Positions 9,442-41,017 of a stretch of 64,000 nt of DNA are shown in pieces. The translations under genes were made by a program, and so were the position numbers. The notes under the pieces are model-generated. The model ran no database searches. It saw only the letters and a list, made by a program, of their open reading frames with translations, and was not told where the DNA came from. Position 1 is the first letter of the stretch; every line of letters starts with the position of its first letter. The DNA lies in NCBI GenBank assembly GCA_964617695.1, contig CAZTYW010000002.1, positions 598 to 64,597 on the forward strand, in the 5' to 3' direction. This stretch comes from an uncultured Dehalococcoidia bacterium (GTDB lineage Bacteria; Chloroflexota; Dehalococcoidia; UBA2247; RBG-13-53-26).

Positions 9442-12144
9442 TTGGGCCTGGTGGGAGGGAGCATGAGGCGCTTCTTACGCCTTGTCGTCCGCTTCTCAGT
9501 TGTTTGGGCCTTTGAGGCGCTATCGCTGCTGGTGCTGCACTGGCTCGTTCCGGGGATCAGCCTATCTGATCCGGAAGGGGTCGGCATCGCCACCGTGGCA
9601 ATGTCGGTGGCGCTGGTCCTGGCTGTCGTCAACGGCCTGATACGGCCCGTTGTCGTCATGCTGGCCCTGCCACTCAACATGATCACCCTCGGTCTTTTCA
9701 CCCTGGTCATCAACGCGGCTATGCTTCGCCTCACTGCTTACGTTCTGCCGGATTTTGTCGTGGACGGCTGGGGAGCAGCCCTGTTGGGCACCGTGGTGCT
9801 GGCGGCCGTCAATACGGTGCTGACAGCTATCACCACCATTGACGATGATTTCTCCTTTTTCGAAGGCGTGGTCCAGTGGCTGAGCAAACGCCGGCGGGTG
9901 GAAGTGGACGCCCATCCGGGCCGCGGGCTGGTGCTGCTGGAGATTGACGGGCTGAGCTGTCACCGAATGAGGCGGGCCGCGGAGAAAGGCTATATGCCTA
10001 CGGTGCGTGAGATGGTGCTCAACGGTACTCACAAGCTATCGGACTACGACTGTGGCCTGCCATCGCAGACCTCGTCGTGCCAGGCCGGAATAATGTACGG
10101 CGACAGCTTCGACATCCCGGCCTTTCGCTGGTACGACAAGGATCGTCGCAAGCTGGTGGCCTCCAACAACTTCCGGGACGCCGCGGAGATGAACGCTCGC
10201 TTCGCCCGCGGGCAGGGACTGCTGCGGGGTGGGTCGAGCGTCAATAACCACATGGCCGGCGATGCCAGGAAGACGCTGTTCACCATGAGCGTTCTCACAG
10301 ACAGGCCAGATGATATGCAGCGGCGGAGTCTCGGTGACCTCAACCTGTTCTTTGTGAACCCCTATATGTTCATCCGCACCCTCCTGTTGACTCTTTGGGA
10401 TGTTCTGGTGGAGCTGGGCCAGGGGCTTCGGCAGCGGCTCCGCAACGTTCGGCCGCGGGTGAACCGTTTGCACAAAGGCTACCCCTTCGTGCGGGCCGCC
10501 ACCAACGTTTTCCTGCGTGACCTGGCAACGTTCATGGTCATCATGGATGTGATTCGCGGGGAGCCCGTCATCTACACCACCTTTGTGGGATATGACGAGG
10601 TAGCCCATCACGCCGGTCCGGATACGAGCGACGCAATGAGGACCCTCAGGGGTTTCGACAAGCAACTCCGACGCATCATAGACGTCATAGAGCGCAAGGC
10701 CCCGCGTCCGTACGACGTGATCCTCCTCTCCGATCACGGCCAGACTCTCGGAGCCACGTTCGAGCAGCGGTACGGGCAGACGCTGACCGAGTTCATTGAG
10801 GGGCTATTGGAGGAGAAAGCTACTGTAACCGAGGTGAATGCCACCGAAAACAGCTACGGCCATGCGTTGAAGCTCATGGCCGAGATCCAGGCGATGGAGC
10901 AGCATGTGCCCGTGGGGAGGGTGAGAGAGGCTACGGTGGGCCGGGCCCGTGGGGCGATTCAGGGCCGGCTGGAGCGCTCGCAGCCTGCGGCGATGGATGC
11001 CCAGGTCATCGTGTGTGCCAGTGGCAATCTGGCCAACGTCTACTTCGACCTGCGTACTGGAAAGGTCAGCTTGCCCGAGTTGAATCTGGCTTACCCGGGT
11101 CTGGTGGACGCTCTGGTAGCACATCCCGGAGTGGGCTTTGTGGTGTCGTACGATCAGGATGGCGCGCCGTGGGCCTTCGGAAAGGACGGTGGGCGCAACC
11201 TCCAGACCGGCGCCGTGTCAGGGGCCGACCCGCTGCTCCCCTATGGTGCCCCCGACCATCGGGCGGCCCAGCTCCTCGGGATGGCAGGGTACCCCCACGC
11301 AGGGGACTTGATCGTCAACAGTACCCTTTTCCCCGATGGCCAGGTAGCGGCCTTTGAGGAGCTTGTCGGCAGCCACGGGGGTCTGGGCGGCCAGCAGACC
11401 GAAGCCTTTCTGCTGCACCCGGCGGATATGGTGGTGCGCCCCACATCCAGTGCGACGGAGGTGTTTTCGATGCTGGATGCGCGGCGTGGCCTTCCTGGAG
11501 AGCCACTCCGCCCCATCAGCGCATCCGGGGTGAATGCGTGGGCGCCGAAGAACCTGATGGTGGGTGTGCGCCAGGTACACACCTGGGCGCTGCGCCTGGT
11601 TCGAGCACTGCGTGTTGATCGCGCCGTATTCAGTGAAGTAGCCGATGACCCCTTTGCCACCGCCCAGGCGCTGGTCACCGTGCTGACGATACTGGCTGCC
11701 ACGGCCCTGGCAAGCAGTCTGGCCGTCCATGCTGAGGGGTCTATACCGGCCAGGTTTGCCGCCGAGCTTGTGGGCGGGCTTATTCGCTGGATGCTGATCG
11801 TCCTGTTCGCGCACACCGCCGGGCGGCTGCTCAGAGGAAAGGGCGACTTTACCCGGACCATGCGGGCCATGGCGTTTGCGCAGGTGCCCTACGTTGTTGC
11901 CGTGCTGGGACTCCTGCCGATAGTCGGCCCGTTGCTGTATCTGGTGGCCGTCCTTCTTGTGCTCTTCGCTACGTGGGTCGCATTGCAGGAAGCCCTTGGC
12001 CTGCGGCGCCTGGTGGCACTGGCAGTTCCCGTGTTGGGCACCCTGGTCTACCTGGCGGTGGCGCTGTTGGTCTTCGCTATGGTGGGCGGCGCGGCGCTCA
12101 CGCTGGAGACGCTGCTGTCGCAATTTGGGATTTCCACGGGTTGA
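9442..12144 (+). CDS. multi-domain membrane protein: N-terminal 4-TM phage-holin-family (superfamily IV) domain, central alkaline-phosphatase-superfamily type I phosphodiesterase/nucleotide pyrophosphatase domain, and C-terminal Yip1-like multi-TM domain
   Basis: 900 aa. N-terminus …VPGISL…GIATVAMSVALVLAVVNGLIRPVV…LGLFTLVINAAML matches the holin-4 family. The middle …EIDGLS…SQTSSCQAGIMYG…GYDEVAHHAGP…LSDHGQT carries alkaline-phosphatase-superfamily metal-ligand motifs. The C-terminal ~190 aa are hydrophobic and Yip1-like. Confidence 0.75.
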   Translation: MGLVGGSMRRFLRLVVRFSVVWAFEALSLLVLHWLVPGISLSDPEGVGIATVAMSVALVLAVVNGLIRPVVVMLALPLNMITLGLFTLVINAAMLRLTAYVLPDFVVDGWGAALLGTVVLAAVNTVLTAITTIDDDFSFFEGVVQWLSKRRRVEVDAHPGRGLVLLEIDGLSCHRMRRAAEKGYMPTVREMVLNGTHKLSDYDCGLPSQTSSCQAGIMYGDSFDIPAFRWYDKDRRKLVASNNFRDAAEMNARFARGQGLLRGGSSVNNHMAGDARKTLFTMSVLTDRPDDMQRRSLGDLNLFFVNPYMFIRTLLLTLWDVLVELGQGLRQRLRNVRPRVNRLHKGYPFVRAATNVFLRDLATFMVIMDVIRGEPVIYTTFVGYDEVAHHAGPDTSDAMRTLRGFDKQLRRIIDVIERKAPRPYDVILLSDHGQTLGATFEQRYGQTLTEFIEGLLEEKATVTEVNATENSYGHALKLMAEIQAMEQHVPVGRVREATVGRARGAIQGRLERSQPAAMDAQVIVCASGNLANVYFDLRTGKVSLPELNLAYPGLVDALVAHPGVGFVVSYDQDGAPWAFGKDGGRNLQTGAVSGADPLLPYGAPDHRAAQLLGMAGYPHAGDLIVNSTLFPDGQVAAFEELVGSHGGLGGQQTEAFLLHPADMVVRPTSSATEVFSMLDARRGLPGEPLRPISASGVNAWAPKNLMVGVRQVHTWALRLVRALRVDRAVFSEVADDPFATAQALVTVLTILAATALASSLAVHAEGSIPARFAAELVGGLIRWMLIVLFAHTAGRLLRGKGDFTRTMRAMAFAQVPYVVAVLGLLPIVGPLLYLVAVLLVLFATWVALQEALGLRRLVALAVPVLGTLVYLAVALLVFAMVGGAALTLETLLSQFGISTG

Positions 12145-28621: not shown

Positions 28622-30031
28622 CTAGTTCCTTCGGCCGCGGCGTGGGGCGCCCCTGGCCTGCTGAGCGGTGGAGCGGTCAGCCCGGTAGTCGGGAGCAACG
28701 ATGTTGAACACCAGACTGAGTCGCGGGTCTGCCAGACGTGAGCTGATTCGGCTCTCGATTTCCTCCAGTGAAGAGCACATGGTGACGGCCATGGGCAGGC
28801 GGGCATTGTACCGGTAGTTGATGAGCTGGTACAGCTTCTCCTGTGCCCAGGGCGTGCTGCTGTGCTCCCCAAAGTCATCCAGGATGAGAAGAGGCGTAGT
28901 CCTCACCTTCTCGAAGAGTTCGTCGTATGTCACCTTGCTTTCCGGGCCGAAAGTGGACCTTAAATGGTCCAGGAAATCGGGGACGATGACGAGACAAACA
29001 GGGTTGCCCCGCCGCACCCGGTAGTTGGCAATGGCGGCGGCCAGATGCGTCTTGCCGCAGCCGTTGTCTCCCTGAAATATGAGCCAGCCGTCTGGAGACT
29101 CGGCAAAGCTCTTGGCAAGGCGAAATGCCTGCTCCAGGTTCTGGCGTTGGTCCGGGGGCAGATTGACGCGTTTGGCGTCAAAGTTGTCAAAGGTCATGCT
29201 GCTGAGCAACTCCAACCCCAGTACGCCTGAATAGTCAAGTATGGAGCGACCCTTTTCCTCCAGCACGTGAACCTGGGAGAGGCTCGGGGCGGTCAGCCGG
29301 CTGTACCATCTCTCATCCAGTTCTTCCAGGACGACGCCGGCCGCTATGTTTATCACGGTAGGCAACTGGTCGTTGAACCGGCGGTTGATGATCTGCAACA
29401 GCTTCTCTTCTGCCCAGGCGGTGCTGGTGTGGATTCCCAGATCGTCCAGCATGAGAAGCGGCGCGGCCTGCACCTGCTCGAAGAGTTCGTCGTAGGAGAC
29501 GTCGCTTGCCGGACTGAAGGCGGAGCGCAGATGGTCGAGCAGATCGGGAACGCTGATGAAGAAAGCTGGCGCCCCTTGCCCCACGCGCTCGTTGGCGATA
29601 GCCGCGGCCAGGTGGGTCTTGCCGCAGCCGCTCGGCCCCATGAACACCAGCCACCCTTCCGGGTGCCTGGCGAAGGACATCGCTGCCTTGCAGGCACGCA
29701 GGAACCTCTCCTGATTGGATGGATCACTGCTGCGGCCCTCGGGTATCAGGTTTTCAAAGGTGAGGCGAGTCAGGCAGCCCAGGTTGCTGTAGCGTTGAAG
29801 TCTGGCCTGCCGGTTCTCTTCAAGCTCTTTCCGGGCGCATTGACAGGGCACCAACTGGCTGTAGTCCGGGCCGCCTGAAGGCAGCCGGGGGTGGACGAAC
29901 CCCGCCCCCCTGCAATGAGGGCACGGCGGGGGCACCTCCGACGGCTCAGCGCTGGACCAGGTGTCCGTACTTGCCCTTGAAGTATCGGTTAGGGTCCTTT
30001 TTCTTCTTAGGATCTCTCCCAGGCTCTCCAC
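28622..30031 (-). CDS. DnaC/DnaI-like helicase-loader ATPase with internally duplicated AAA+ module and N-terminal zinc ribbon
   Basis: 469 aa. N-terminus CPHCRGAGF…VPCQCARKE. Two tandem repeats each carry a Walker A GxGKTHLAAAIAN followed by …VPD(L/F)LDHLRS(A/T)F… and …LDD(L/F)G…: GPSGCGKTHLAAAIANERV… and GDNGCGKTHLAAAIANYRV…. Confidence 0.8.
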   Translation of the reverse strand: MESLGEILRRKRTLTDTSRASTDTWSSAEPSEVPPPCPHCRGAGFVHPRLPSGGPDYSQLVPCQCARKELEENRQARLQRYSNLGCLTRLTFENLIPEGRSSDPSNQERFLRACKAAMSFARHPEGWLVFMGPSGCGKTHLAAAIANERVGQGAPAFFISVPDLLDHLRSAFSPASDVSYDELFEQVQAAPLLMLDDLGIHTSTAWAEEKLLQIINRRFNDQLPTVINIAAGVVLEELDERWYSRLTAPSLSQVHVLEEKGRSILDYSGVLGLELLSSMTFDNFDAKRVNLPPDQRQNLEQAFRLAKSFAESPDGWLIFQGDNGCGKTHLAAAIANYRVRRGNPVCLVIVPDFLDHLRSTFGPESKVTYDELFEKVRTTPLLILDDFGEHSSTPWAQEKLYQLINYRYNARLPMAVTMCSSLEEIESRISSRLADPRLSLVFNIVAPDYRADRSTAQQARGAPRRGRRN

Positions 30032-30701
30032 TCTCCCTACCCTCCGACGACCATCGCTCCAGAATGCGGGCGATGTATTTCCAGTTGCGCTTATTCAGGC
30101 TGACGGCCTCCTTGAAGGCATCCTCGATCCACCGCGGGGGATAAAGCCTCTCCGCCTCCTCCAGTTCGTCGGCGATGATCGGGGTCAGCAGACCGATGTT
30201 CTGCTCGTACAATGTGTAGATGTTGGGCCTTTCGTCTTTCGTGGCTGGCTGCGGCTGCGGCAAGGCACCCAGGGACAGTCTGCCCTCCTGTACGTCTGCG
30301 ATAGTCCCCCTGTTTGCTTCCGTGTTTATGAAATAGACCTCTTCCTGATCTCCCTCTTTCTCAACAACCAGGCGCAAAAGGATACCGTCGGCTACGGCTG
30401 CCTCCAGCGCACCTCCCACGGCTTCAGCAGGGTCGCCGCTGGTATCCATACCTGTCACCAGCCCCTTGTCGCCCATGAGCTCCTTCCCGGTGACAAACCT
30501 GACAGGGCCCTGCTTCTGGTACAGCCGCCAGAAGATGTGCAGCACCAGCTTCAACTCTGCCAGGTTGTCGATGTCGGGCAGTAGCCTGTTGAAGAAAAGG
30601 TTCGGGACAGGCGTGAAGCTCAACCTACTTGGGAAACCGCGGAAGGGTTGTTTGTTCACTATCCTCGTCCTGCGACCAGTAGTTCTCGAACTTGATGACA
30701 T
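29946..30701 (-). CDS. DnaD-domain replication-initiation protein (true start probably downstream of the annotated one)
   Basis: N-terminus …FTPVPNLFFNRLLP… and C-terminal …AFKEAVSLNKRNWKYIARILERW… are DnaD/DnaB(Bsu) helical-domain hallmarks. The track ORF overlaps dnaB by 77 nt, so an internal GTG/TTG start is likely. Confidence 0.7.
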   Translation of the reverse strand: MSSSSRTTGRRTRIVNKQPFRGFPSRLSFTPVPNLFFNRLLPDIDNLAELKLVLHIFWRLYQKQGPVRFVTGKELMGDKGLVTGMDTSGDPAEAVGGALEAAVADGILLRLVVEKEGDQEEVYFINTEANRGTIADVQEGRLSLGALPQPQPATKDERPNIYTLYEQNIGLLTPIIADELEEAERLYPPRWIEDAFKEAVSLNKRNWKYIARILERWSSEGRESGEPGRDPKKKKDPNRYFKGKYGHLVQR

Positions 30702-32031
30702 TCTGGCGGAACCTCAGGTGCCTCTGTCCGGTGGGCCCGTTGCGATGCTTGGCTACTATGATAGTGGCCAGTCCCTCGGGATACTGCTTGTCGGGGTGCC
30801 GCATCTCCCATTCCTCCCTGGTGTGGTACACGTCTTCCCGGTAGATAAACAGCACAACATCGGCATCCTGCTCGATGCTGCCACTTTCCCTCAGGTCGGA
30901 AAGCTGAGGCCGCGGAGGGCTGCGTGATTCCACGGCTCTGCTCAACTGCGATAGGGCAAGGACGGGGACTTCGAGTTCGCGAGCCAGAGCTTTGAGTGAG
31001 CGGGAGATTTCGCCAATCTCCTGCGCCTTGTTCTCCGACCTGCCGTCACCCCGAATTAGCTGCAGGTAGTCCACAATGATGAGGTCTATACCCTGATCGT
31101 AGTAGAGGCGGCGGGCCTTGCCTCGCATCTCCACCACCCTCAGAAGTGGCGAATCGTCCACGTATATGGGTGCCCCGGAGAGTTCGCCAGCGGCCTCCAT
31201 GATGCTCCTCTCCTGCGAGGCCGTGTACTGTCCCGTTCTGACCTGCCTGGAGTCGACCTCAGCCTCGCTGGATAGGAAGCGCTGCACCAACTGCTCCTTG
31301 GACATTTCCAGGCTGAAAATAGCCACTCGGGCCCCCTGGTCCATAGCCGCATTCCTGGCGATATTCAGCGCCAGGCTGGATTTCCCCAGGGCTGTTCTGG
31401 CCGCCAGCACTATCATGTCAGAGCGCTGCAGACCGCCAAGCATGTCATCCAGACCGGCAAAGCCCGTCAGCACGTGAGGCAGATGGCCGGCGGAGTCGGG
31501 TGGCGCCGGGGCAAAACCGGTCTCCTCGAAGTACTCGTCCAGGACGCTGCGGATGTGGACGAAATCGCGGCGGCTCTCGCCGCGGCGTATGCGGTACAGT
31601 ATGTCCTCCGCCTTGCTGAGGGCTGTGTCCACATCGGGGTCCGCTTCGTAGCCTATGGCGGCGATTTGCCCTGAGGCGCTGATCAGGCGCCGCATCAACG
31701 CCAGGCGGTGCACAATCTGAGCATAGTATTCAGCGTGAATCGAAGTGGGAAGTACAGAGACCAGATGACTCAAATACGCAGCACCGCCAACCTCATCCAG
31801 CTTGCCTTGCCTGGTCAACTCCTGGGCGACGGTTATCTGGTCTATTCGCTCGTTTCGCTCGTAGAGAGACAGGCAGGCATCGTAGAGCCACTGGTTCTTC
31901 TCCCGATAGAAGGCCTCAGACCTGAGAAAGTCCGCGGTCTTGAGGATTGCCTCGGGGTCAACAAGTAGCGAGCCGATTACCGCCTCTTCCGCCTCAATAT
32001 TGTGAGGAGGTAACCTCTCGCCGTCGGCCAC
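30625..32031 (-). CDS. dnaB: replicative DNA helicase (GTG start)
   Basis: 468 aa. N-terminal …NIEAEEAVIGSLL… and a RecA-like domain with Walker A …ARTALGKSSLALNIA…. Confidence 0.9.
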   Translation of the reverse strand: MADGERLPPHNIEAEEAVIGSLLVDPEAILKTADFLRSEAFYREKNQWLYDACLSLYERNERIDQITVAQELTRQGKLDEVGGAAYLSHLVSVLPTSIHAEYYAQIVHRLALMRRLISASGQIAAIGYEADPDVDTALSKAEDILYRIRRGESRRDFVHIRSVLDEYFEETGFAPAPPDSAGHLPHVLTGFAGLDDMLGGLQRSDMIVLAARTALGKSSLALNIARNAAMDQGARVAIFSLEMSKEQLVQRFLSSEAEVDSRQVRTGQYTASQERSIMEAAGELSGAPIYVDDSPLLRVVEMRGKARRLYYDQGIDLIIVDYLQLIRGDGRSENKAQEIGEISRSLKALARELEVPVLALSQLSRAVESRSPPRPQLSDLRESGSIEQDADVVLFIYREDVYHTREEWEMRHPDKQYPEGLATIIVAKHRNGPTGQRHLRFRQNVIKFENYWSQDEDSEQTTLPRFPK

Positions 32032-32032
32032 G

Positions 32033-32482
32033 CTATTCCTCCGGGGAAACGGTGACTCTGATCTTGGGGGCGGAATCCGTACCCAGCCGGACGGTTACCT
32101 CGTATTCTCCCAATTGACGGATGGGCTCCTGAAGCTCGATCTTTCTTCGCTCGATCTCCGAGCCGGTCAACCGGCTCAACTCATCGGCGATGTCGCTGTC
32201 CCTGATGGAGCCGTAGAGTCGGTCCTCTTCCACGACCTTGGCCTTAAAGGTGACCAGCAGTCCTTCCAGTTGCTGCGCCAGTTCGCCGGTCTCGGCGGCA
32301 ACACGCTGTTGCCTTTCTCGCTCCTTCTGGACCTGCACCTCTGCTGCCTTCAGAGCCGACGGTGTGGCCAGCAAGGCGAGCTTCCTGGGAAGCAGGTAGT
32401 TCCTTCCGTACCCATCAGCCACGTCCTTCAAGTCTCCGGCCCTGGCTACGTTGGGGACGTCTTTGAGGAAGATGACCTTCAT
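32033..32482 (-). CDS. rplI: 50S ribosomal protein L9
   Basis: 149 aa; MKVIFLKDV…GDLKDVADGYGRNYLLPRKLA. Its stop abuts the dnaB start. Confidence 0.9.
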   Translation of the reverse strand: MKVIFLKDVPNVARAGDLKDVADGYGRNYLLPRKLALLATPSALKAAEVQVQKERERQQRVAAETGELAQQLEGLLVTFKAKVVEEDRLYGSIRDSDIADELSRLTGSEIERRKIELQEPIRQLGEYEVTVRLGTDSAPKIRVTVSPEE

Positions 32483-35933: not shown

Positions 35934-37436
35934 ATGAAGATAAAGCGATGTATGGCAGGTCTAATCGTGGCCGCTCTACTGGTCCTGGCCATGGCGTTGC
36001 CGGGAGCGGCGCAGCCAGGCCCGGGTGATTCGGTGCCGGTGTGGCCCTCGAACGTGACGGCCGAACTGGCGCCCGGGGAGACCATGTGCGTCAACAAGAC
36101 TGTGACGGTCCCTACGCTTCTTCCCAAGGCTGATGTGGTCATATCCGTGGACCTGACGGGCAGCATGATTGAGGAGTTGACCAACCTCAAGACGGAGATC
36201 GCCAGCATAGTCGAGGCGCTCTCGAATGAGACTGCAGACCTGAACGTCGGGATAGTCTCCCATGAGGACTACCCGGAGTATTATGACTACTGCGGCTACG
36301 CAGCGCACTACGGGGACGCAACGAACGAGCCCTTCCGGGTTGATCAGGCCGTGAGTGGCGATTTTGCAGCCGCAAAGGCTGCCGTCCAGGCGATGAGTGC
36401 GGGAGGCGGAGCAGACCTCCCCGAATCGTATGCCCGGGTCATGTGGGAGAGTGGCCACTCTGACAATCTGATGGGCTACCGCGCCGATGCCCAGAAGATA
36501 TTGATCATGTTCCTGGATGACCGTCCGCACGACTGCGGTCTGGATACCGGACGCGACCCGGGACGTGACGCAGATGTCGGGACAGGGGACGACATCGACC
36601 TTGAGGACGATGCTATTCCAGCTATGCAGGCTGCCGGGGTGACATTGCTGGTGGTGTCCAGCGGTACTCATACAGCTCTGTGGAATGGGATCGCTGGGGT
36701 CACCGGGGGCTCTGCTGTGCAGATCAACGCCGATGGCACAGTGCCGGGTGGAATCAGCTTGACGGAGCTGATCCTGGACCTGGTAGCCGAGGTGGAGACG
36801 GACGTATGGTGGCAGGTAGCGGCTGATCCCGGCCTGAGCGTTGTGCTTACCCCCGCGGTACACTACGATGTGCCGGGCGGGAGCACCGTTCAATTCCAGG
36901 AGACGATAACGGTGGCCGAGGATGCAACCCCGTGCACTACTCTGGATGCTGTTGTCACCTTCTACGCCAACAGCTACCCTGAAGAAGGGGCGGTGATCGG
37001 CCGGCAATACGTCAGCATCAAGGTGGAGGAGGAGTGCCCTCCGCTCGTAGTATGGTGTGTTGAGAGCGTCAACCCGCACGGGCAAAAGGTGCCGCCTGCC
37101 GGCAAGACTACTATGCCGGGTCCGAAGGGCGGCCAGAACGAGGACGGTTTCTACCAGCTTCTGGCCTCCGGCGGCTGTGGCGAGCCAGAGGACATTGAAA
37201 TATATGTCGACTACGCCGGCGGCAGCTTCGGGCCGTTCGTGAACGGGACCGTCATCAAGTTCACCGAGGCACCTGGGGCGCCCCCCTCGCAGAAGAAGAT
37301 AGGCAGTGCCAATGGCCAGGCAGGCGCAGTGTCCTGGCACATCACCCTGCCTTCCGACCCGGTGATCAGAGCTGTTGACGTTGCTGGCAACGTGGCGACT
37401 TGCGACTGCTGTCTGGTGCCGCCTCCTCCCAAGTAG
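35934..37436 (+). CDS. secreted von Willebrand factor type A (VWA) domain protein
   Basis: 500 aa. N-terminal signal peptide (MKIKRCMAGLIVAALLVLAMALPGAA). MIDAS-like DLTGSM motif. Cys-rich C-terminal tail …CDCCLVPPPPK. AAAGGAGAGG Shine-Dalgarno. Confidence 0.7.
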   Translation: MKIKRCMAGLIVAALLVLAMALPGAAQPGPGDSVPVWPSNVTAELAPGETMCVNKTVTVPTLLPKADVVISVDLTGSMIEELTNLKTEIASIVEALSNETADLNVGIVSHEDYPEYYDYCGYAAHYGDATNEPFRVDQAVSGDFAAAKAAVQAMSAGGGADLPESYARVMWESGHSDNLMGYRADAQKILIMFLDDRPHDCGLDTGRDPGRDADVGTGDDIDLEDDAIPAMQAAGVTLLVVSSGTHTALWNGIAGVTGGSAVQINADGTVPGGISLTELILDLVAEVETDVWWQVAADPGLSVVLTPAVHYDVPGGSTVQFQETITVAEDATPCTTLDAVVTFYANSYPEEGAVIGRQYVSIKVEEECPPLVVWCVESVNPHGQKVPPAGKTTMPGPKGGQNEDGFYQLLASGGCGEPEDIEIYVDYAGGSFGPFVNGTVIKFTEAPGAPPSQKKIGSANGQAGAVSWHITLPSDPVIRAVDVAGNVATCDCCLVPPPPK

Positions 37437-37628: not shown

Positions 37629-40031
37629 GTGGACACTGCGATCAAAGACCTGAAGGATAACGTAATCATCAAGGCGGTCAAGGGCCTTTACAGGGGTCAA
37701 CAGAGGGTGGACGAGGATGCCGGCTACAGGGCAGAGGTGAAAGTCTGCCTGGAGCGGGCCCGGCTGATCACAGAGTCCTACAAGGAGACCGAAGGTGAGC
37801 CCATGATTACCAGGAGGGCCAAGGCCCTCAAGAAGATCCTGGAGAACATGACTATCTACATCCAGGACAAGGAGCGCCTGGTGGGCAACCTGGCCCGGGA
37901 CCAGTTCTCCCTGCCGCTTTATCCCGAGCTCTACTGGAGATGGCTGGAGAAGGCCCTGGACAATGAGTACCAGCACCTGCTGGACGATGAGGGGAAGAAG
38001 GAGCTCAAAGAGATTAACAAGTACTGGGTCAGGCTGTCTGTGCACGGCATGGAGCGGAACCTGGTGCCGCCCAGCCTCAAGCCGTTTACGCGCTACACGC
38101 CGGTGACCGTCTTCAGCTATACGTGGGACATGGTGTTGCCCAACTACGAGAAGATACTCAAGGTGGGCCTCAGGAGCATCGTAAAGGAGGCAGAGGACAG
38201 GCTGAGGGAGATCGAGTCAGACGTCACAATGCATGCCAGGGAGTACCTGGAGCAGAAGAGGTTTCTCCAGGCCGCCATAATGTGCCTGGAGGCGACTATC
38301 ACTTTCTCCAGGAGGTACGCTGCGCTGGCCAGGGATAAGGCAGCGAGTGCCACCGATCCGGAGGAGAAGGCCAGACTGGAACGGATTGCCGAGATATGCG
38401 ATTGGGTGCCGGAAAACCCGGCCAGGACGATGCACGAGGCTATGCAGTGCTTCTTCATAATCCATTTGATCGTCGGTTTTATCGAGCTGCCTTCGGTAGG
38501 CTGCGGCGTGAGACTGGATAAGGTCATGTACCCGTACTATAGGAAGGACATGGATGAGGGCAGGCTGACCAAGGAAGAGGCCCTGAACCTGATAGAGTCG
38601 CTGTGGATCAAGTTTGAGGAGATGGGATTCATCCATCCACCCAGGTTGTTCGGGTCGGCTGGTGGGGGGCTGGCCTGGCAGAACGTCACGCTCGGTGGAG
38701 TGGATGAGAAGGGCAACGATGCCAGCAACGAGTTGTCCTACATGATTCTGGATGCCACCAGGGAGTTGCATTCTGTTCAGCCTCCCCTGTGCTTCAGGTA
38801 CCACGACAAGATACCCAGGGACCTGGTGTTGAGGGCGGTAGATACCCAGAGGACGAGGGTAGCCCAGCCAGCCTTCTTCAATGACAAGATGATGATTCCC
38901 TACCTGACGGAGAAGGGTATACCTCTGGAGGACGCCCGGGACTACGCCTACAGCAACTGCATGTCCTGGACGATTCCGGGAAAGAGTATGGTCTACCGGC
39001 AGGGTATGGGTATGTTCTCGTTCACCAACTGCCTGCAGTTGGCGCTTAACCAGGGCAAGGACTGGCGCACCGGCCAGCAGTTTGGCTGCCCCACTCCCGA
39101 TCCGCTGACCTTCAAGTCGGTCGATGAGATCATAGATGCGACCATGGAGCAGTACCGCTTCTTCTTTGAGAAGCAGACCTACATCAACAATTTGGCGGAT
39201 GCCCTCTACGAGGAGTACCTGCCCCGGCCGCTCATTTCGGCGCTGGTGGACGACTGTATCCAGAAGGGCAAAGACTGCCGGAGGTGGTACTACCATCACC
39301 GCAACTACGTGATGCCTACCGGGGTGAACAACGCAGCCGACTCGCTGGCGGCCATAAAGAAGTTCGTGTTTGAGGAGAAGAAGGCCAGCATGGCTGAGCT
39401 CCTCGAAGCTTTGAAAGGCAACTTCGAAGGAAACGAGGAGCTGCGTCAGAAGCTACTCGGTGCCCCCAAATTTGGCAACGACCAGGACTATGTCGACAAC
39501 ATCGCCAGAACGCTTCACGTGCGGATAAAGGAGGAGACGCAGAAGTATAAGACGTATTACGGGTATCCTTTCGACGTTGACGGTACCAACGCGTCGGTGG
39601 GCTACTACCTCGGCATCGACGTTGGCGCTACGGCCGAGGGCCGCAAGGCCGGAGAGCCGCTGCACGACGGCAGTATCTCGCCGGTGCAGGGCCAGGACAA
39701 GAAGGGGCCTACCGCCGTGCTCAACTCTGTGGCCAAGGTCGATCCGCTGCGCTCTGCCAACCACCTGTTCAACCAGAGGTTTGCGCCTGAGTTCCTGGAG
39801 GGACCCAACCGGGACATCTTTGCCAGCTACCTCAAGACCTGGGCTGATCTGGGAATTCACCACATCCAGTTCAACGTCGTAGACCCGGAGATACTTCGGG
39901 ATGCTCAGGAACATCCCGAAAGGCATGCCGACCTGATAGTCAGGGTGGCGGGATACGCGGCCTACTTCGTGGACTTGACCAGGTCTCTTCAGGATGACAT
40001 TATCGCCAGGACTGAGCAGCGCTTCTCCTGA
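37629..40031 (+). CDS. glycyl radical enzyme (pyruvate formate-lyase superfamily; non-PFL clade), GTG start
   Basis: 800 aa. C-terminal glycyl-radical motif …IVRVAGYAAYFVDLTRSLQDDIIARTEQRF. The active-site Cys loop reads …DYAYSNCMSWTIPG… (single Cys, no CC, no C-x-E). AGGAGG lies 7 nt upstream of the GTG. Confidence 0.9.
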   Translation: MDTAIKDLKDNVIIKAVKGLYRGQQRVDEDAGYRAEVKVCLERARLITESYKETEGEPMITRRAKALKKILENMTIYIQDKERLVGNLARDQFSLPLYPELYWRWLEKALDNEYQHLLDDEGKKELKEINKYWVRLSVHGMERNLVPPSLKPFTRYTPVTVFSYTWDMVLPNYEKILKVGLRSIVKEAEDRLREIESDVTMHAREYLEQKRFLQAAIMCLEATITFSRRYAALARDKAASATDPEEKARLERIAEICDWVPENPARTMHEAMQCFFIIHLIVGFIELPSVGCGVRLDKVMYPYYRKDMDEGRLTKEEALNLIESLWIKFEEMGFIHPPRLFGSAGGGLAWQNVTLGGVDEKGNDASNELSYMILDATRELHSVQPPLCFRYHDKIPRDLVLRAVDTQRTRVAQPAFFNDKMMIPYLTEKGIPLEDARDYAYSNCMSWTIPGKSMVYRQGMGMFSFTNCLQLALNQGKDWRTGQQFGCPTPDPLTFKSVDEIIDATMEQYRFFFEKQTYINNLADALYEEYLPRPLISALVDDCIQKGKDCRRWYYHHRNYVMPTGVNNAADSLAAIKKFVFEEKKASMAELLEALKGNFEGNEELRQKLLGAPKFGNDQDYVDNIARTLHVRIKEETQKYKTYYGYPFDVDGTNASVGYYLGIDVGATAEGRKAGEPLHDGSISPVQGQDKKGPTAVLNSVAKVDPLRSANHLFNQRFAPEFLEGPNRDIFASYLKTWADLGIHHIQFNVVDPEILRDAQEHPERHADLIVRVAGYAAYFVDLTRSLQDDIIARTEQRFS

Positions 40032-40102: not shown

Positions 40103-41017
40103 ATGGAGCTAAAGGATGTTCGGGCTATCGACACCATGTGCCGGGCAGGATATGCCGGGATCGTGACCGAGGAGGAGTGGAAGGAGACCTGGAGCTTCTA
40201 CGAGTCTCAGGCCTGTGTCAAGGGCACCTTCGGCGGCGTGCTGAAAAAGCTGGGTGTGTCGGAGGAGGACGGCTGGAAGGTCGTCGCCTCTCAGTACAAG
40301 GCTTCGGTCGACGACATGATCAAGGAGATGGACGAGGTGGGGGTGGACAAGGCCTTCGTAGACCAGCAGTTGATATGGTCCAGGCACGAGAACAAGCTGG
40401 TGACTGGCTTCACCGTGGATCGAATTGCCGAGATAGTGGACAAGGGCAAAGGCAGGATCGTTGGTGGTGCCGGCTATAACCCCTTCCGGATAGAGGAAAG
40501 CCTTAAGGACCTGGAAAGGGCGGTCAAGGAGTGCGGCTTCAAGTACGTGTGGTTTCACCCCAATAGCTTTGGCGTCAAGGCCAGCGATGCCAGGTGCTAC
40601 CCGCTGTACGCCAAGTGCATAGAACTGGACATACCAGTCAGTTTCCAGACGGGGCACTCGGCGGAGCCCCTGCCCAGTGAAATAGGCCGTCCAATGTACG
40701 CCGACGAAGTAGCTATGGATTTCCCCAATCTGAAGATGGTCCTTACCCACACTGGTTGGCCGTGGATCGGTGAGTGGTGCTCCATGATCTGGCGCCACCC
40801 CAAAGTCTACGGGAACATCGGCGCCTACTATCCTGCCAGCCTCCATCAGGAGACGATTGACTTTCTCAGTGGGCCGATTGGCAGGAGCAAGGTGTTCTGG
40901 GCTACGAATGGCTTCGGGCTGACGCGCTGCAAGCAGGAGTTCGTCGACCTGCCTATGAAAGACGCCAACAAGCAGGCTATTCTCAGGGACAACGCCGTAG
41001 CCGTGTTCAAGCTATAG
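40103..41017 (+). CDS. amidohydrolase-2 (PF04909-like TIM-barrel metal-dependent hydrolase / reversible decarboxylase family) protein
   Basis: 304 aa. …WFHPNSFG…FQTGHSAEP…MVLTHTGWPW… is typical of the ACMSD / LigW / gamma-resorcylate-decarboxylase family. Sits 71 nt downstream of the GRE. Confidence 0.8.
   Translation: MELKDVRAIDTMCRAGYAGIVTEEEWKETWSFYESQACVKGTFGGVLKKLGVSEEDGWKVVASQYKASVDDMIKEMDEVGVDKAFVDQQLIWSRHENKLVTGFTVDRIAEIVDKGKGRIVGGAGYNPFRIEESLKDLERAVKECGFKYVWFHPNSFGVKASDARCYPLYAKCIELDIPVSFQTGHSAEPLPSEIGRPMYADEVAMDFPNLKMVLTHTGWPWIGEWCSMIWRHPKVYGNIGAYYPASLHQETIDFLSGPIGRSKVFWATNGFGLTRCKQEFVDLPMKDANKQAILRDNAVAVFKL

What the first reader, a model, noticed from the sequence alone, without database searches (positions are those of the whole stretch)
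28622..30031. Helicase loader with internally duplicated DnaC/DnaI AAA+ module
A single 469-aa ORF contains an N-terminal Cys4 zinc ribbon and two consecutive ~170-aa repeats. Each has Walker A G(P/D)(S/N)GCGKTHLAAAIAN, the downstream …VPD(L/F)LDHLRS(A/T)F… and …LDD(L/F)G… (Walker B) segments, and …W(A)(E/Q)EKL(L/Y)Q(I/L)IN(R/Y)R(F/Y)N… The two repeats are ~50% identical to each other.

It is the last gene of a dnaB / DnaD-like / DnaI-like cluster, which is Firmicutes-style primosome organisation, directly downstream of rplI. A loader carrying two ATPase modules in one chain is unusual, since DnaC/DnaI normally has one AAA+ per protomer. It could reflect a pseudo-dimeric loader or a recent tandem duplication.
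Basis: seen in the sequence. Interest (0 to 1): 0.55.

Follow-up and report, generated by a model that had tools for sequence, protein, structure and literature searches.

The report
Double-ATPase helicase loader of Chloroflexota
This gene encodes a DNA-replication helicase loader that carries two ATPase engines in one chain instead of the usual one; the doubled form is old, is standard in at least two large classes of Chloroflexota bacteria, and I found no paper describing it.

Summary
ORF 28622-30031 (-) encodes 469 aa: a conserved N-terminal peptide, a Cys4 zinc ribbon, and two DnaC/DnaI-type AAA+ modules (residues 84-257 and 272-450; 51% identical over 171 aa, E 8e-60).

It is not an assembly artefact or a recent duplication. 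The same two-module protein sits in the same rplI-dnaB-dnaD-like-loader operon in 79 of 80 Dehalococcoidia species genomes. It is also the usual form in Anaerolineales. Modules at the same position in different lineages are more alike than the two modules of one protein.

Both modules keep the Walker A Lys, Walker B Asp-Asp, the arginine finger and the four ssDNA-contact residues known from E. coli DnaC. In Dehalococcoidia, module 1 has lost the canonical sensor-II motif (0/121 against 120/121 in module 2), has a variable sensor I, and evolves faster.

Best reading: this is the resident replicative helicase loader, built as a covalent asymmetric pair with one helicase-binding head per two ATPase modules. 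Three chains per DnaB hexamer is inferred, echoing the trimer of dimers seen for DnaI.

No paper describing this architecture was found. I rate it a new variant of a known kind. Stoichiometry and the role of each ATP site are untested.

The parts
28622..30031 (-). Whole loader gene: 469 codons plus stop, GTG start.
   Evidence: One search lists the ORF. More than 120 full-length homologues of 400-475 aa at 59-99% identity. The N-terminal MESLGEIL... peptide is conserved, which supports the long start.
30041..30045 (-). Shine-Dalgarno-like GGAGG, 9 nt upstream of the GTG start and inside the DnaD-like gene.
   Evidence: Read directly from the sequence.
29927..30031 (-). N-terminal peptide, residues 1-35. 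Its first 86 nt overlap the 3' end of the DnaD-like gene in another frame.
   Evidence: Peptide conserved among homologues. AF2 confidence is low here. The overlap recurs in 79 of 80 loci.
29783..29926 (-). Cys4 zinc ribbon (C37, C40, C63, C65; a CPxCxGxG-type motif) plus helix 64-81. Presumed helicase-binding head; only one copy per chain.
   Evidence: The four Cys are invariant in alignment A1. AF2 pLDDT is about 80-84. The NCBIfam PRK06835 match spans residues 37-247. Taken alone, the region shows no significant similarity to DnaI_N.
29261..29782 (-). AAA+ module 1 (residues 84-257). Walker A K138, Walker B D196-D197, sensor I N228, arginine coupler R241, arginine finger R245. ssDNA residues R169, F172, T204, W206. 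No canonical sensor-II motif.
   Evidence: Sensor-II motif present in 0/121 close homologues. Sensor I is V54/N39/T22 in the clade. Core identity among orthologues is 67%.
29219..29260 (-). Inter-module linker (residues 258-271): variable and predicted disordered.
   Evidence: pLDDT below 50 for residues 261-273. All-against-all identity is 39%.
28682..29218 (-). AAA+ module 2 (residues 272-450). Walker A K327, Walker B D385-D386, sensor I T417, arginine coupler R428, arginine finger R432, sensor II R450 in the motif APDYR. ssDNA residues R358, F361, T393, W395.
   Evidence: Sensor II present in 120/121. Core identity among orthologues is 74%.
28622..28681 (-). Basic C-terminal tail (residues 451-469) and the stop codon.
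   Evidence: An Arg/Lys-rich tail is present in most homologues. AF2 confidence is low here.
29946..30701 (-). DnaD-domain protein (251 aa), the presumed co-loader or origin remodeller.
   Evidence: Pfam DnaB_2 2.6e-09; TIGR01446 DnaD_dom 43 bits against a cut-off of 25. PHROG 186, 'DnaD-like helicase loader'. Present upstream of the loader in 79 of 80 loci.
30625..32031 (-). Replicative DNA helicase DnaB (468 aa).
   Evidence: TIGR00665 511 bits against a cut-off of 385; Pfam DnaB plus DnaB_C.
32033..32482 (-). rplI (ribosomal protein L9), the first gene of the cluster.
   Evidence: ORF listed. Named L9 from its sequence and position, not checked with a family search here. tblastn with this ORF finds a homologue upstream of dnaB in 62 loci.

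Best explanation
**What it is.** This is the resident chromosomal loader for the replicative helicase DnaB in a Dehalococcoidia bacterium. It belongs to the DnaC/DnaI (AAA+ initiator-clade) kind. An old internal duplication has placed two complete AAA+ modules behind a single zinc-ribbon head.

**Proposed mechanism.** Steps marked inferred are not shown by any test here.
1. The gene is co-transcribed with dnaB and a DnaD-like gene and is translationally coupled to the latter. The gene order and the overlap are shown; the coupling is inferred.
2. The zinc-ribbon head docks on DnaB, as the N-terminal domains of DnaI and DnaC do (inferred).
3. The two AAA+ modules act as a covalent dimer. Three chains would then supply the six ATPase modules that line a DnaB hexamer, hard-wiring the 'trimer of dimers' seen for DnaI on DnaB (inferred).
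4. Both modules bind ATP and ssDNA. This is inferred from the conserved Walker A/B motifs and the K143/F146/S177/Y179-equivalent residues in both modules.
5. The two ATP sites are not equivalent. Module 2 has every catalytic element. Module 1 in this clade lacks the canonical sensor-II arginine motif and has a variable sensor I. Module 1 is therefore probably a slow or non-hydrolysing, ATP-dependent assembly site, while module 2 is the hydrolytic switch that times loader release. The motif pattern is shown; the consequence is inferred from the E. coli DnaC R237D phenotype.
For: **Identity**
- PF01695 in two stretches.
- PHROG 50 'DnaC-like helicase loader', 271 bits, two stretches.
- The best PDB sequence hits are E. 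coli DnaC (6qel) and B. subtilis DnaI (4m4w), E about 1e-13.
- Single modules of the AF2 model superpose on DnaI 2w58 (TM 0.73, rmsd 3.3) and Aquifex DnaC 3ecc (TM 0.78, rmsd 2.8).

**Residency**
- The rplI-dnaB-dnaD-like-loader order holds in 79 of 80 species genomes and in Anaerolineae loci.
- The surrounding window holds housekeeping genes and no mobile-element genes.
- Brezellec et al. 2016 (PMC5109545) record one domesticated dna[CI] gene in Chloroflexi.

**Age and breadth**
- 120/120, 118/118 and 118/119 of the closest homologues in three searches have two modules.
- At least 438 species genomes hold a relative.
- Same-position modules are 49-51% identical between two Dehalococcoidia groups, against 44-47% for different-position modules. 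Within-protein identity equals between-protein identity at 47%.

**Both modules look functional**
- Across 3 x ~120 homologues, the Walker A Lys, both Walker B Asp, R407 and the Y179-equivalent Trp are invariant in both modules. The arginine finger and the K143-equivalent Arg are nearly so (at least 116 of 118 in every group).
- Landmark spacing is identical in both modules.

**Asymmetry**
- Sensor II is present in 0/121 module 1 against 120/121 module 2, and in 0/118 against 116/118 in the second group.
- Module 1 sensor I is V54/N39/T22, against T in 121/121 for module 2.
- Module 1 core identity is 67%, against 74% for module 2.

**Literature**
- In E. coli DnaC, R237D (sensor II) abolishes ATPase activity but leaves loading near wild type (PMC8213410).
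- DnaI on DnaB forms a three-fold 'trimer of dimers' whose two members contact the helicase differently (PMC3791466).
Against: - No biochemical or structural test of stoichiometry exists. Six chains, giving twelve modules per hexamer, is not excluded.
- AF2 gives no confident inter-module packing: pTM is 0.50 and the linker is disordered. No coordinates were available to inspect the interface.
- Taken alone, the N-terminal head shows no significant sequence similarity to DnaI_N or to the DnaC N-terminal domain. Its helicase-binding role is assumed from position only.
- Module 1 keeps a conserved basic residue (K/R in 110/121) 15 residues after the arginine finger. This particular protein also has an unconserved Arg (R262) at the sensor-II spacing. 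Module 1 could therefore still hydrolyse ATP.
- In Anaerolineales the pattern differs: module 1 always has sensor II, and module 2 has it in 74/118. A single rule for which site is degenerate does not hold.
- I could not check whether the same genome also encodes DciA or another loader.
Confidence: 0.72

Rival explanations
1. The doubled module is a recent tandem duplication or an assembly artefact (a repeat joined or collapsed wrongly) peculiar to this contig.
For: The two modules share long identical peptide runs, such as GCGKTHLAAAIAN, and a 261-nt DNA stretch at 75% identity. A few odd relatives could be artefacts: P0122 has two modules 83% identical to each other, and P0140 is a one-module form 73% identical to module 2.
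Against: The same architecture occurs in hundreds of independent assemblies, including Mb-size contigs and a complete chromosome. Synteny is conserved in 79 of 80 loci. The modules are only 51% identical, and outside the core the DNA no longer aligns. Modules at the same position are more alike across lineages than the two modules of one protein. No within-protein sister pairs appear among 64 diverse two-module proteins.
Confidence: 0.01
2. One module is a dead pseudo-ATPase that serves only as a spacer or scaffold. Functionally this would be an ordinary one-ATPase loader with extra mass, used at six chains per DnaB hexamer.
For: Module 1 lacks the canonical sensor-II motif in all 239 Dehalococcoidia homologues examined. 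It also has valine at sensor I in about 45% of the close clade and evolves faster. The arginine coupler is lost from module 1 in the second Dehalococcoidia group.
Against: Module 1 keeps the Walker A Lys/Thr, both Walker B Asp, the arginine finger (120/121) and the ssDNA-contact residues as strictly as module 2, with identical landmark spacing. That degree of conservation is not expected of a passive spacer. In Anaerolineales module 1 is the fully canonical module.
Confidence: 0.15
3. It is a mobile-element or prophage gene (an IS21 IstB-type transposition helper or a phage DnaC-like loader) rather than the host's own loader.
For: The best Pfam model is IstB_IS21, and the best PHROG is the phage 'DnaC-like helicase loader' family. 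dna[CI] genes are thought to derive from phages (PMC5109545).
Against: NCBIfam IS21_help_AAA scores 124 against a cut-off of 200. No transposase or phage genes are nearby, and the neighbours are housekeeping genes. The position after rplI-dnaB is fixed across species. PADLOC gives only generic P-loop matches.
Confidence: 0.02
4. The two modules serve two different helicase rings or partners. For example, one chain could bridge the two DnaB hexamers that must be loaded in opposite directions at the origin, or one module could engage DnaA or the DnaD-like protein rather than DnaB.
For: There is only one helicase-binding head per two modules. The linker is long and flexible. The pre-AAA segment of module 2 carries module-specific invariant residues (R288, L291, R296, N298, L299), which could form a distinct interface. 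Module number varies from 1 to 4 among relatives.
Against: No direct evidence. Both modules retain the same ssDNA-contact residues, which suggests that both sit on ssDNA in one spiral.
Confidence: 0.1

Closest known systems
Bacillus subtilis / Geobacillus DnaI (PDB 4m4w, 2w58)
   Same: A zinc-binding N-terminal region is followed by a DnaC/DnaI-type AAA+ module with a DD Walker B motif. It works in a system that includes a DnaD-domain protein. On DnaB, the loader forms a three-fold trimer of dimers (PMC3791466). The AAA+ fold superposes at TM 0.73.
   Different: DnaI has one AAA+ module per chain; this protein has two fused. NCBIfam DnaI scores 122 against a cut-off of 228. Taken alone, the N-terminal head has no detectable similarity to DnaI_N and carries a Cys4 CPxCxGxG-type motif. 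The gene follows dnaB (helicase) and the dnaD-like gene directly, instead of sitting in the Bacillus dnaB(co-loader)-dnaI operon (Bacillus arrangement from general knowledge).
Escherichia coli DnaC (PDB 6qel/6qem)
   Same: It is the best PDB sequence hit (E 7e-14). K112, D169, N203, R216, R220, R237 and the ssDNA tetrad K143/F146/S177/Y179 all have counterparts in module 2. All but R237 have counterparts in module 1.
   Different: DnaC is a single-module protein with a helical, zinc-free N-terminal domain, used at six chains per hexamer. NCBIfam DnaC scores 137 against a cut-off of 357. Its Walker B is DE rather than DD.
Clostridial-type DnaC-like proteins (NCBIfam PRK08116 / PRK06835)
   Same: These are the best NCBIfam models. 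PRK08116 scores 222 bits. The PRK06835 match spans the zinc ribbon and module 1 (residues 37-247).
   Different: Those models describe proteins of about 270-330 residues with one module (profile lengths 269 and 330). The above-cut-off PRK08116 score here is the sum of two module matches.
IS21 IstB transposition helper (PDB 5bq5, 8q3w)
   Same: The same Pfam family (PF01695) and the same AAA+ sub-type.
   Different: There is no IstA partner and no mobile context. The NCBIfam score is below the cut-off (124 against 200). The chromosomal position is conserved.
Type II tandem AAA+ proteins (p97/VCP, NSF, ClpB)
   Same: Two AAA+ modules in one polypeptide. One module is often degenerate in hydrolysis.
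   Different: They belong to a different AAA+ clade with stacked double rings (general knowledge). Foldseek aligns them only loosely: TM about 0.28, rmsd 14-20 Å, 15% identity.

Membership tests
DnaC/DnaI-class AAA+ helicase loaders (Pfam PF01695, 'AAA-CI' of Brezellec 2016) | AAA+ module matching PF01695 above the gathering score. | tested here: met
   105 bits against 24.1, in two stretches. PHROG 50 'DnaC-like helicase loader', 271 bits.
DnaC/DnaI-class AAA+ helicase loaders (Pfam PF01695, 'AAA-CI' of Brezellec 2016) | Walker A Lys, Walker B acidic pair, sensor I and arginine finger. | tested here: met
   Module 1: K138, D196/D197, N228, R245. Module 2: K327, D385/D386, T417, R432. Conserved in about 360 homologues, except module 1 sensor I, which varies.
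DnaC/DnaI-class AAA+ helicase loaders (Pfam PF01695, 'AAA-CI' of Brezellec 2016) | Sensor-II arginine (E. coli R237). | tested here: inconclusive
   Module 2 has it: R450 in APDYR, 120/121. Module 1 lacks the canonical motif, 0/121, although K/R sits at +15 in 110/121 and this protein has an unconserved R262.
DnaC/DnaI-class AAA+ helicase loaders (Pfam PF01695, 'AAA-CI' of Brezellec 2016) | Initiator-clade two-helix insertion between strands beta2 and beta3, and overall fold. | tested here: met
   AF2 secondary structure shows E157-160, H161-170, H180-188, E193-198 in module 1 and the same pattern in module 2. Foldseek gives TM 0.73 and 0.78 to the DnaI and Aquifex DnaC AAA+ domains. The model is predicted, not solved.
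DnaC/DnaI-class AAA+ helicase loaders (Pfam PF01695, 'AAA-CI' of Brezellec 2016) | ssDNA-binding tetrad (E. coli K143, F146, S177, Y179). | tested here: met
   R169/F172/T204/W206 and R358/F361/T393/W395, conserved in both modules.
DnaC/DnaI-class AAA+ helicase loaders (Pfam PF01695, 'AAA-CI' of Brezellec 2016) | One AAA+ module per polypeptide, as in all characterised members. | tested here: not met
   Two full modules. This is the point of difference.
DnaC/DnaI-class AAA+ helicase loaders (Pfam PF01695, 'AAA-CI' of Brezellec 2016) | Resident gene with conserved chromosomal context ('domesticated'). | tested here: met
   rplI-dnaB-dnaD-like-loader in 79 of 80 species genomes, and in Anaerolineae.
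DnaC/DnaI-class AAA+ helicase loaders (Pfam PF01695, 'AAA-CI' of Brezellec 2016) | Binds DnaB and loads it on ssDNA. | not testable with these tools
   Needs biochemistry or genetics.
B. subtilis-type DnaI (NCBIfam NF006505; Pfam DnaI_N) | Score above the equivalog cut-off, and a DnaI_N zinc domain. | tested here: not met
   122 bits against 228. No DnaI_N hit even at E 10, and no PDB hit for the head alone. Only a weak extension of the 4m4w alignment reaches into residues 46-83.
E. coli-type DnaC (NCBIfam NF005931) | Score above the equivalog cut-off. | tested here: not met
   137 bits against 357.
NCBIfam PRK08116 subfamily (NF005992) | Score above the subfamily cut-off. | tested here: inconclusive
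   222 bits against 189, but the score sums two module matches to a 269-position, one-module profile.
IS21 IstB helper ATPase (NF038214) | Score above the cut-off, and an adjacent IstA transposase. | tested here: not met
   124 bits against 200. The neighbours are dnaB, a dnaD-like gene and htpX.
Type II tandem AAA+ (p97/NSF/ClpB) | Two AAA+ modules of the classical clade forming stacked rings. | tested here: not met
   Two modules are present, but of the DnaC/DnaI type. Foldseek gives TM about 0.28 and rmsd 14-20 Å to p97.

The most novel reading that the evidence does not exclude
Chloroflexota replicate with a helicase loader whose working unit is a covalent, functionally asymmetric pair of AAA+ modules.

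Three chains, and therefore only three helicase-binding heads, would coat one DnaB hexamer, with hydrolytic and non-hydrolytic ATP sites alternating around the spiral. This would turn the transient 'trimer of dimers' of DnaI/DnaC into a fixed architecture.

The number of modules per chain is itself evolvable. One-, two- and four-module forms occur in the same operon slot, and different classes have let different sites degenerate.
Probability: 0.35. Interest if true: 0.72.

Novelty: new variant of a known kind. Interest (0 to 1): 0.58.

Why it matters
How DnaC/DnaI-type loaders use six ATP sites is still debated. Open questions include which sites must hydrolyse, whether the loaders act as dimers, and how many helicase contacts are needed.

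A natural loader in which pairs of modules are fused, and in which one site of each pair has drifted from the canonical catalytic set, is a ready-made experiment on those questions. Individual sites can be mutated without mixing subunits.

It also shows that the replication-initiation machinery of a large, environmentally dominant and mostly uncultured phylum departs from both the E. coli and the Bacillus paradigms. The group includes organohalide-respiring Dehalococcoidia, SAR202 and Anaerolineae.

Current annotation hides this, because the proteins are labelled only 'ATP-binding protein' or 'DnaC'.

Tried and rejected
- **Assembly artefact or recent duplication.** Rejected on conserved architecture and synteny and on module comparisons.
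- **IS21 or phage origin of this copy, or a defence-system ATPase.** Rejected on context and on sub-threshold or generic matches.
- **One duplication or several.** I looked for indel or residue signatures shared by module 1 (or module 2) across Dehalococcoidia and Anaerolineae. None was found: landmark spacing is identical and there were 0-2 signature columns. The NJ tree is star-like. The identity matrix supports a duplication older than the Dehalococcoidia radiation. It only weakly favours a shared event with Anaerolineae: module 2 to module 2 is 0.52 against 0.48, but module 1 to module 1 is 0.45 against 0.47. Left unresolved.
- **N-terminal head.** Searched alone against Pfam and PDB sequences; nothing significant.
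- **Inter-module geometry.** It could not be examined. The AF2 output gives no coordinates or PAE, and pTM is 0.50. The whole-chain Foldseek hits to p97 are topological only.
- **One-module relatives.** I tested whether they are the common ancestral form in other Chloroflexota. The nearest relatives of P0247 are almost all two-module proteins, so one-module forms are rare. Some are fragments (P0232, P0263, P0268).
- **Organism names.** A cluster look-up gave mostly unnamed MAG proteins.
- **RNA genes.** Rfam and tRNA scans of the window found nothing.
- **Literature.** Six full-text searches found no description of a tandem DnaC/DnaI loader. The library lacks most subscription-journal papers, so absence is not proof.
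Full report
**1.

The minus-strand ORF 28622..30031 starts with GTG and encodes 469 residues.

BLASTP of the N-terminal part against the C-terminal part aligns residues 84-254 with 272-442. Identity is 51% over 171 positions with one 2-residue gap, E 8e-60. At DNA level only the core still aligns, at 75% over 261 nt.

Pfam IstB_IS21 (PF01695), the model that covers DnaC, DnaI and IstB, matches twice and scores 105 bits against a cut-off of 24.1. NCBIfam lists PRK08116, PRK06835, DnaC, IstB and DnaI, each with two matched stretches.

The upstream genes on the same strand are:
- a DnaD-domain protein at 29946-30701,
- the DnaB helicase at 30625-32031 (TIGR00665, 511 bits),
- rplI at 32033-32482.

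The wider window carries housekeeping genes: SHMT, a phosphate transporter, a TilS-like protein, a MiaB-like radical-SAM enzyme, HtpX and homoserine dehydrogenase. There are no phage or transposon genes.

**2. It is neither an artefact nor recent**

A search of 5.8 billion proteins returned more than 120 full-length relatives. They are 400-475 aa long and 59-99% identical. Where named, they are labelled Chloroflexota, Dehalococcoidia or Dehalococcoidales 'ATP-binding protein' or 'DnaC'.

A scan of one genome per GTDB species found at least 438 genomes with a relative. The best 80 were all Chloroflexota, mostly labelled Dehalococcoidia, and included a complete chromosome.

In 79 of those 80 loci the DnaD-like gene lies directly upstream. 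dnaB and rplI precede it wherever the contig reaches.

An exhaustive HMMER search of 50%-identity cluster representatives found 677 relatives at E below 1e-30. Most of the best 150 are 400-500 aa long, carry two Walker A motifs about 188 residues apart, and align colinearly with the query down to 33% identity.

Searches seeded with two distant relatives gave the same picture. All 118 closest relatives of an Anaerolineales-type protein have two modules, as do 118 of the 119 closest relatives of a rare one-module protein. Many lie on Mb-size contigs.

The Anaerolineae genes sit in the same dnaB-DnaB_2-loader arrangement.

**3. Age of the duplication**

In a neighbour-joining tree of 143 modules, the two modules of a protein are never sisters in any of the 64 diverse two-module proteins included.

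With well-defined groups, modules at the same position are more alike between two Dehalococcoidia groups (0.51 and 0.49) than the two modules of a protein are (0.44-0.47). Within-protein identity equals between-protein identity at 0.47, so there is no sign of ongoing gene conversion.

The duplication therefore predates the radiation of Dehalococcoidia. Whether Anaerolineae share the same event is unresolved:
- module 2 to module 2 identity across the classes is 0.52 against 0.48,
- module 1 to module 1 is 0.45 against 0.47,
- no indel or signature columns discriminate.

**4. Anatomy**

| Residues | Feature | Evidence |
|---|---|---|
| 1-35 | Conserved peptide (MESLGEIL...), low model confidence | |
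| 36-83 | Cys4 ribbon (C37, C40, C63, C65, all invariant) plus a helix | |
| 84-257 | AAA+ module 1 | |
| 258-271 | Variable, disordered linker | |
| 272-450 | AAA+ module 2 | |
| 451-469 | Basic tail | |

The duplicated unit begins after the zinc ribbon, so there is one head for two ATPase modules.

The AF2 model has mean pLDDT 79 and pTM 0.50. It gives each module the beta2-helix-helix-beta3 pattern expected of the initiator clade. Single modules superpose on DnaI (TM 0.73) and Aquifex DnaC (TM 0.78). Whole-chain hits to p97 are loose, at TM about 0.28.

Taken alone, the head has no significant match to DnaI_N or to anything in the PDB. Its helicase-binding role is an assumption from position.

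**5. State of the two ATP sites**

I used the phmmer alignment to E. coli DnaC and the residue roles listed by Puri et al. 2021 (PMC8213410). I moved sensor I and the two arginines a few residues from the printed alignment, because the conserved R-x3-R spacing fits better there.

| E. coli DnaC residue | Role | Module 1 | Module 2 |
|---|---|---|---|
| K112 | Walker A | K138 | K327 |
| D169/E170 | Walker B | D196/D197 | D385/D386 |
| N203 | Sensor I | N228 | T417 |
| R216 | Arginine coupler | R241 | R428 |
| R220 | Arginine finger | R245 | R432 |
| K143/F146/S177/Y179 | ssDNA tetrad | R169/F172/T204/W206 | R358/F361/T393/W395 |

Across three sets of about 120 homologues:
- The Walker A Lys, both Walker B Asp, R407 and the Y179-equivalent Trp are invariant in both modules.
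- The arginine finger and the K143-equivalent Arg are nearly invariant, at 116 of 118 or more in every group.
- The S177 position is always Thr or Ser.
- The spacing between landmarks is identical in the two modules.

The exception is sensor II (E. coli Y236-R237):
- Module 2 ends in APDYR, with R450 present in 120/121 close homologues.
- Module 1 has no such motif in 0/121, nor in 0/118 of a second Dehalococcoidia/SAR202 group.
- In the close clade, sensor I of module 1 is V54/N39/T22, against Thr in 121/121 for module 2.
- The module 1 core evolves faster: 67% against 74% identity.

In Anaerolineales the pattern differs. Module 1 always has sensor II, and module 2 has it in 74/118.

Two caveats apply. 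Module 1 in the close clade keeps K/R at +15 after the arginine finger in 110/121. This particular protein also has an unconserved Arg (R262) at the sensor-II spacing.

**6. Most likely mechanism**

Shown by the tests here:
- a resident DnaC/DnaI-class gene fixed in an operon with dnaB and a dnaD-like gene,
- two structurally intact modules, both conserved for nucleotide and ssDNA contacts,
- a single head,
- asymmetric catalytic motifs.

Inferred:
- The protein acts as a covalent dimer. Three chains would provide the six AAA+ modules that line a DnaB hexamer.
- Module 2 would be the hydrolytic switch.
- Module 1 would be an ATP-dependent but slow or non-hydrolysing assembly site.

Two published results make this plausible. 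In the DnaB-DnaI-DnaG crystal structure, the loader is a three-fold 'trimer of dimers' whose two members contact the helicase differently (PMC3791466). In E. coli DnaC, the sensor-II mutant R237D loses ATPase activity but loads DnaB almost normally (PMC8213410).

Which arginine finger serves which site, and the true stoichiometry, could not be tested.

**7. Comparison with known systems**

It works like DnaI or DnaC, and it passes the family tests for the DnaC/DnaI AAA+ class. The exception is the one-module-per-chain architecture shared by all characterised members.

It does not reach the NCBIfam equivalog cut-offs for DnaC (137 against 357), DnaI (122 against 228) or IstB (124 against 200). 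Its above-cut-off PRK08116 score is inflated because two module matches are summed.

Brezellec et al. 2016 recorded a domesticated dna[CI] gene in Chloroflexi, but the sections I read do not mention a duplicated module (PMC5109545). Six full-text searches found no description of a tandem DnaC/DnaI loader.

I therefore rate it a new variant of a known kind. The sequences are public but annotated only generically.

**8. Verdict**

- The interpretation as a helicase loader with an internally duplicated module is supported.
- 'Recent duplication' and 'artefact' are rejected.
- The doubled architecture is ancient and is the standard form in Dehalococcoidia and Anaerolineales.
- Interest is moderate to high for replication specialists, because it offers a natural fused-dimer loader with non-equivalent ATP sites.
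- The mechanistic model remains inference.

Noticed in passing
window 29946-30031 (-); also L001-L080, L081 6001-6038, L082 6001-6011: The loader's GTG start lies 86 nt inside the 3' end of the DnaD-like gene, in another frame, with a GGAGG 9 nt upstream. Both reading frames are conserved across the overlap in 79 of 80 Dehalococcoidia loci. Shorter overlaps (38 and 11 nt) occur in two Anaerolineae loci. This suggests translational coupling of the co-loader and the loader.
   Followed up: partly
L082 6001-8484 (protein P0121): An 827-aa loader with four AAA+ modules, 40-65% identical to each other. All four have intact Walker A/B. The first three are followed by (L)PDYR or PNFR and the last by APDYQ. 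It occupies the same dnaB-DnaB_2-loader slot on a 64-kb contig and was seen on two contigs. Module number per chain is therefore variable.
   Followed up: partly
L082 3433-5259: The dnaB gene next to the four-module loader is 608 aa and carries an intein (PF14890 Intein_splicing).
   Followed up: no
proteins P0247, P0486, P0191, P0226, P0140 (no locus fetched): These are rare one-module relatives (259-287 aa) with the same MESLG... N-terminus, zinc ribbon, APDYR motif and basic tail. P0140 is 73% identical to module 2 of the window protein, as if module 1 had been deleted or the repeat collapsed in assembly. Most sit on very short contigs.
   Followed up: partly
proteins P0083 (638 aa) and P0122 (792 aa): P0083 reads as a DnaD-like protein fused in frame to the loader. 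P0122 has three modules, the first two 83% identical, and a repeated C-terminal tail. Either could be real fusions or expansions, or frameshift or assembly errors.
   Followed up: no
window 37629-40031 (+): An 800-aa glycyl-radical enzyme (PFL-like 605 bits plus the Gly_radical domain), followed by an amidohydrolase (40103-41017). No activating enzyme was looked for.
   Followed up: no
window 35934-37436 (+): A 500-aa ORF with a signal-peptide-like N-terminus and no Pfam match at E 1e-5.
   Followed up: no
window 9442-12144 (+): A 900-aa ORF combines a 4-TMS holin-family domain (Phage_holin_4_2), a type I phosphodiesterase domain and a Yip1 domain. This is an odd combination that may reflect fused ORF calls.
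   Followed up: no
window 1-64000: No tRNA genes and no Rfam family at gathering threshold in 64 kb.
   Followed up: yes
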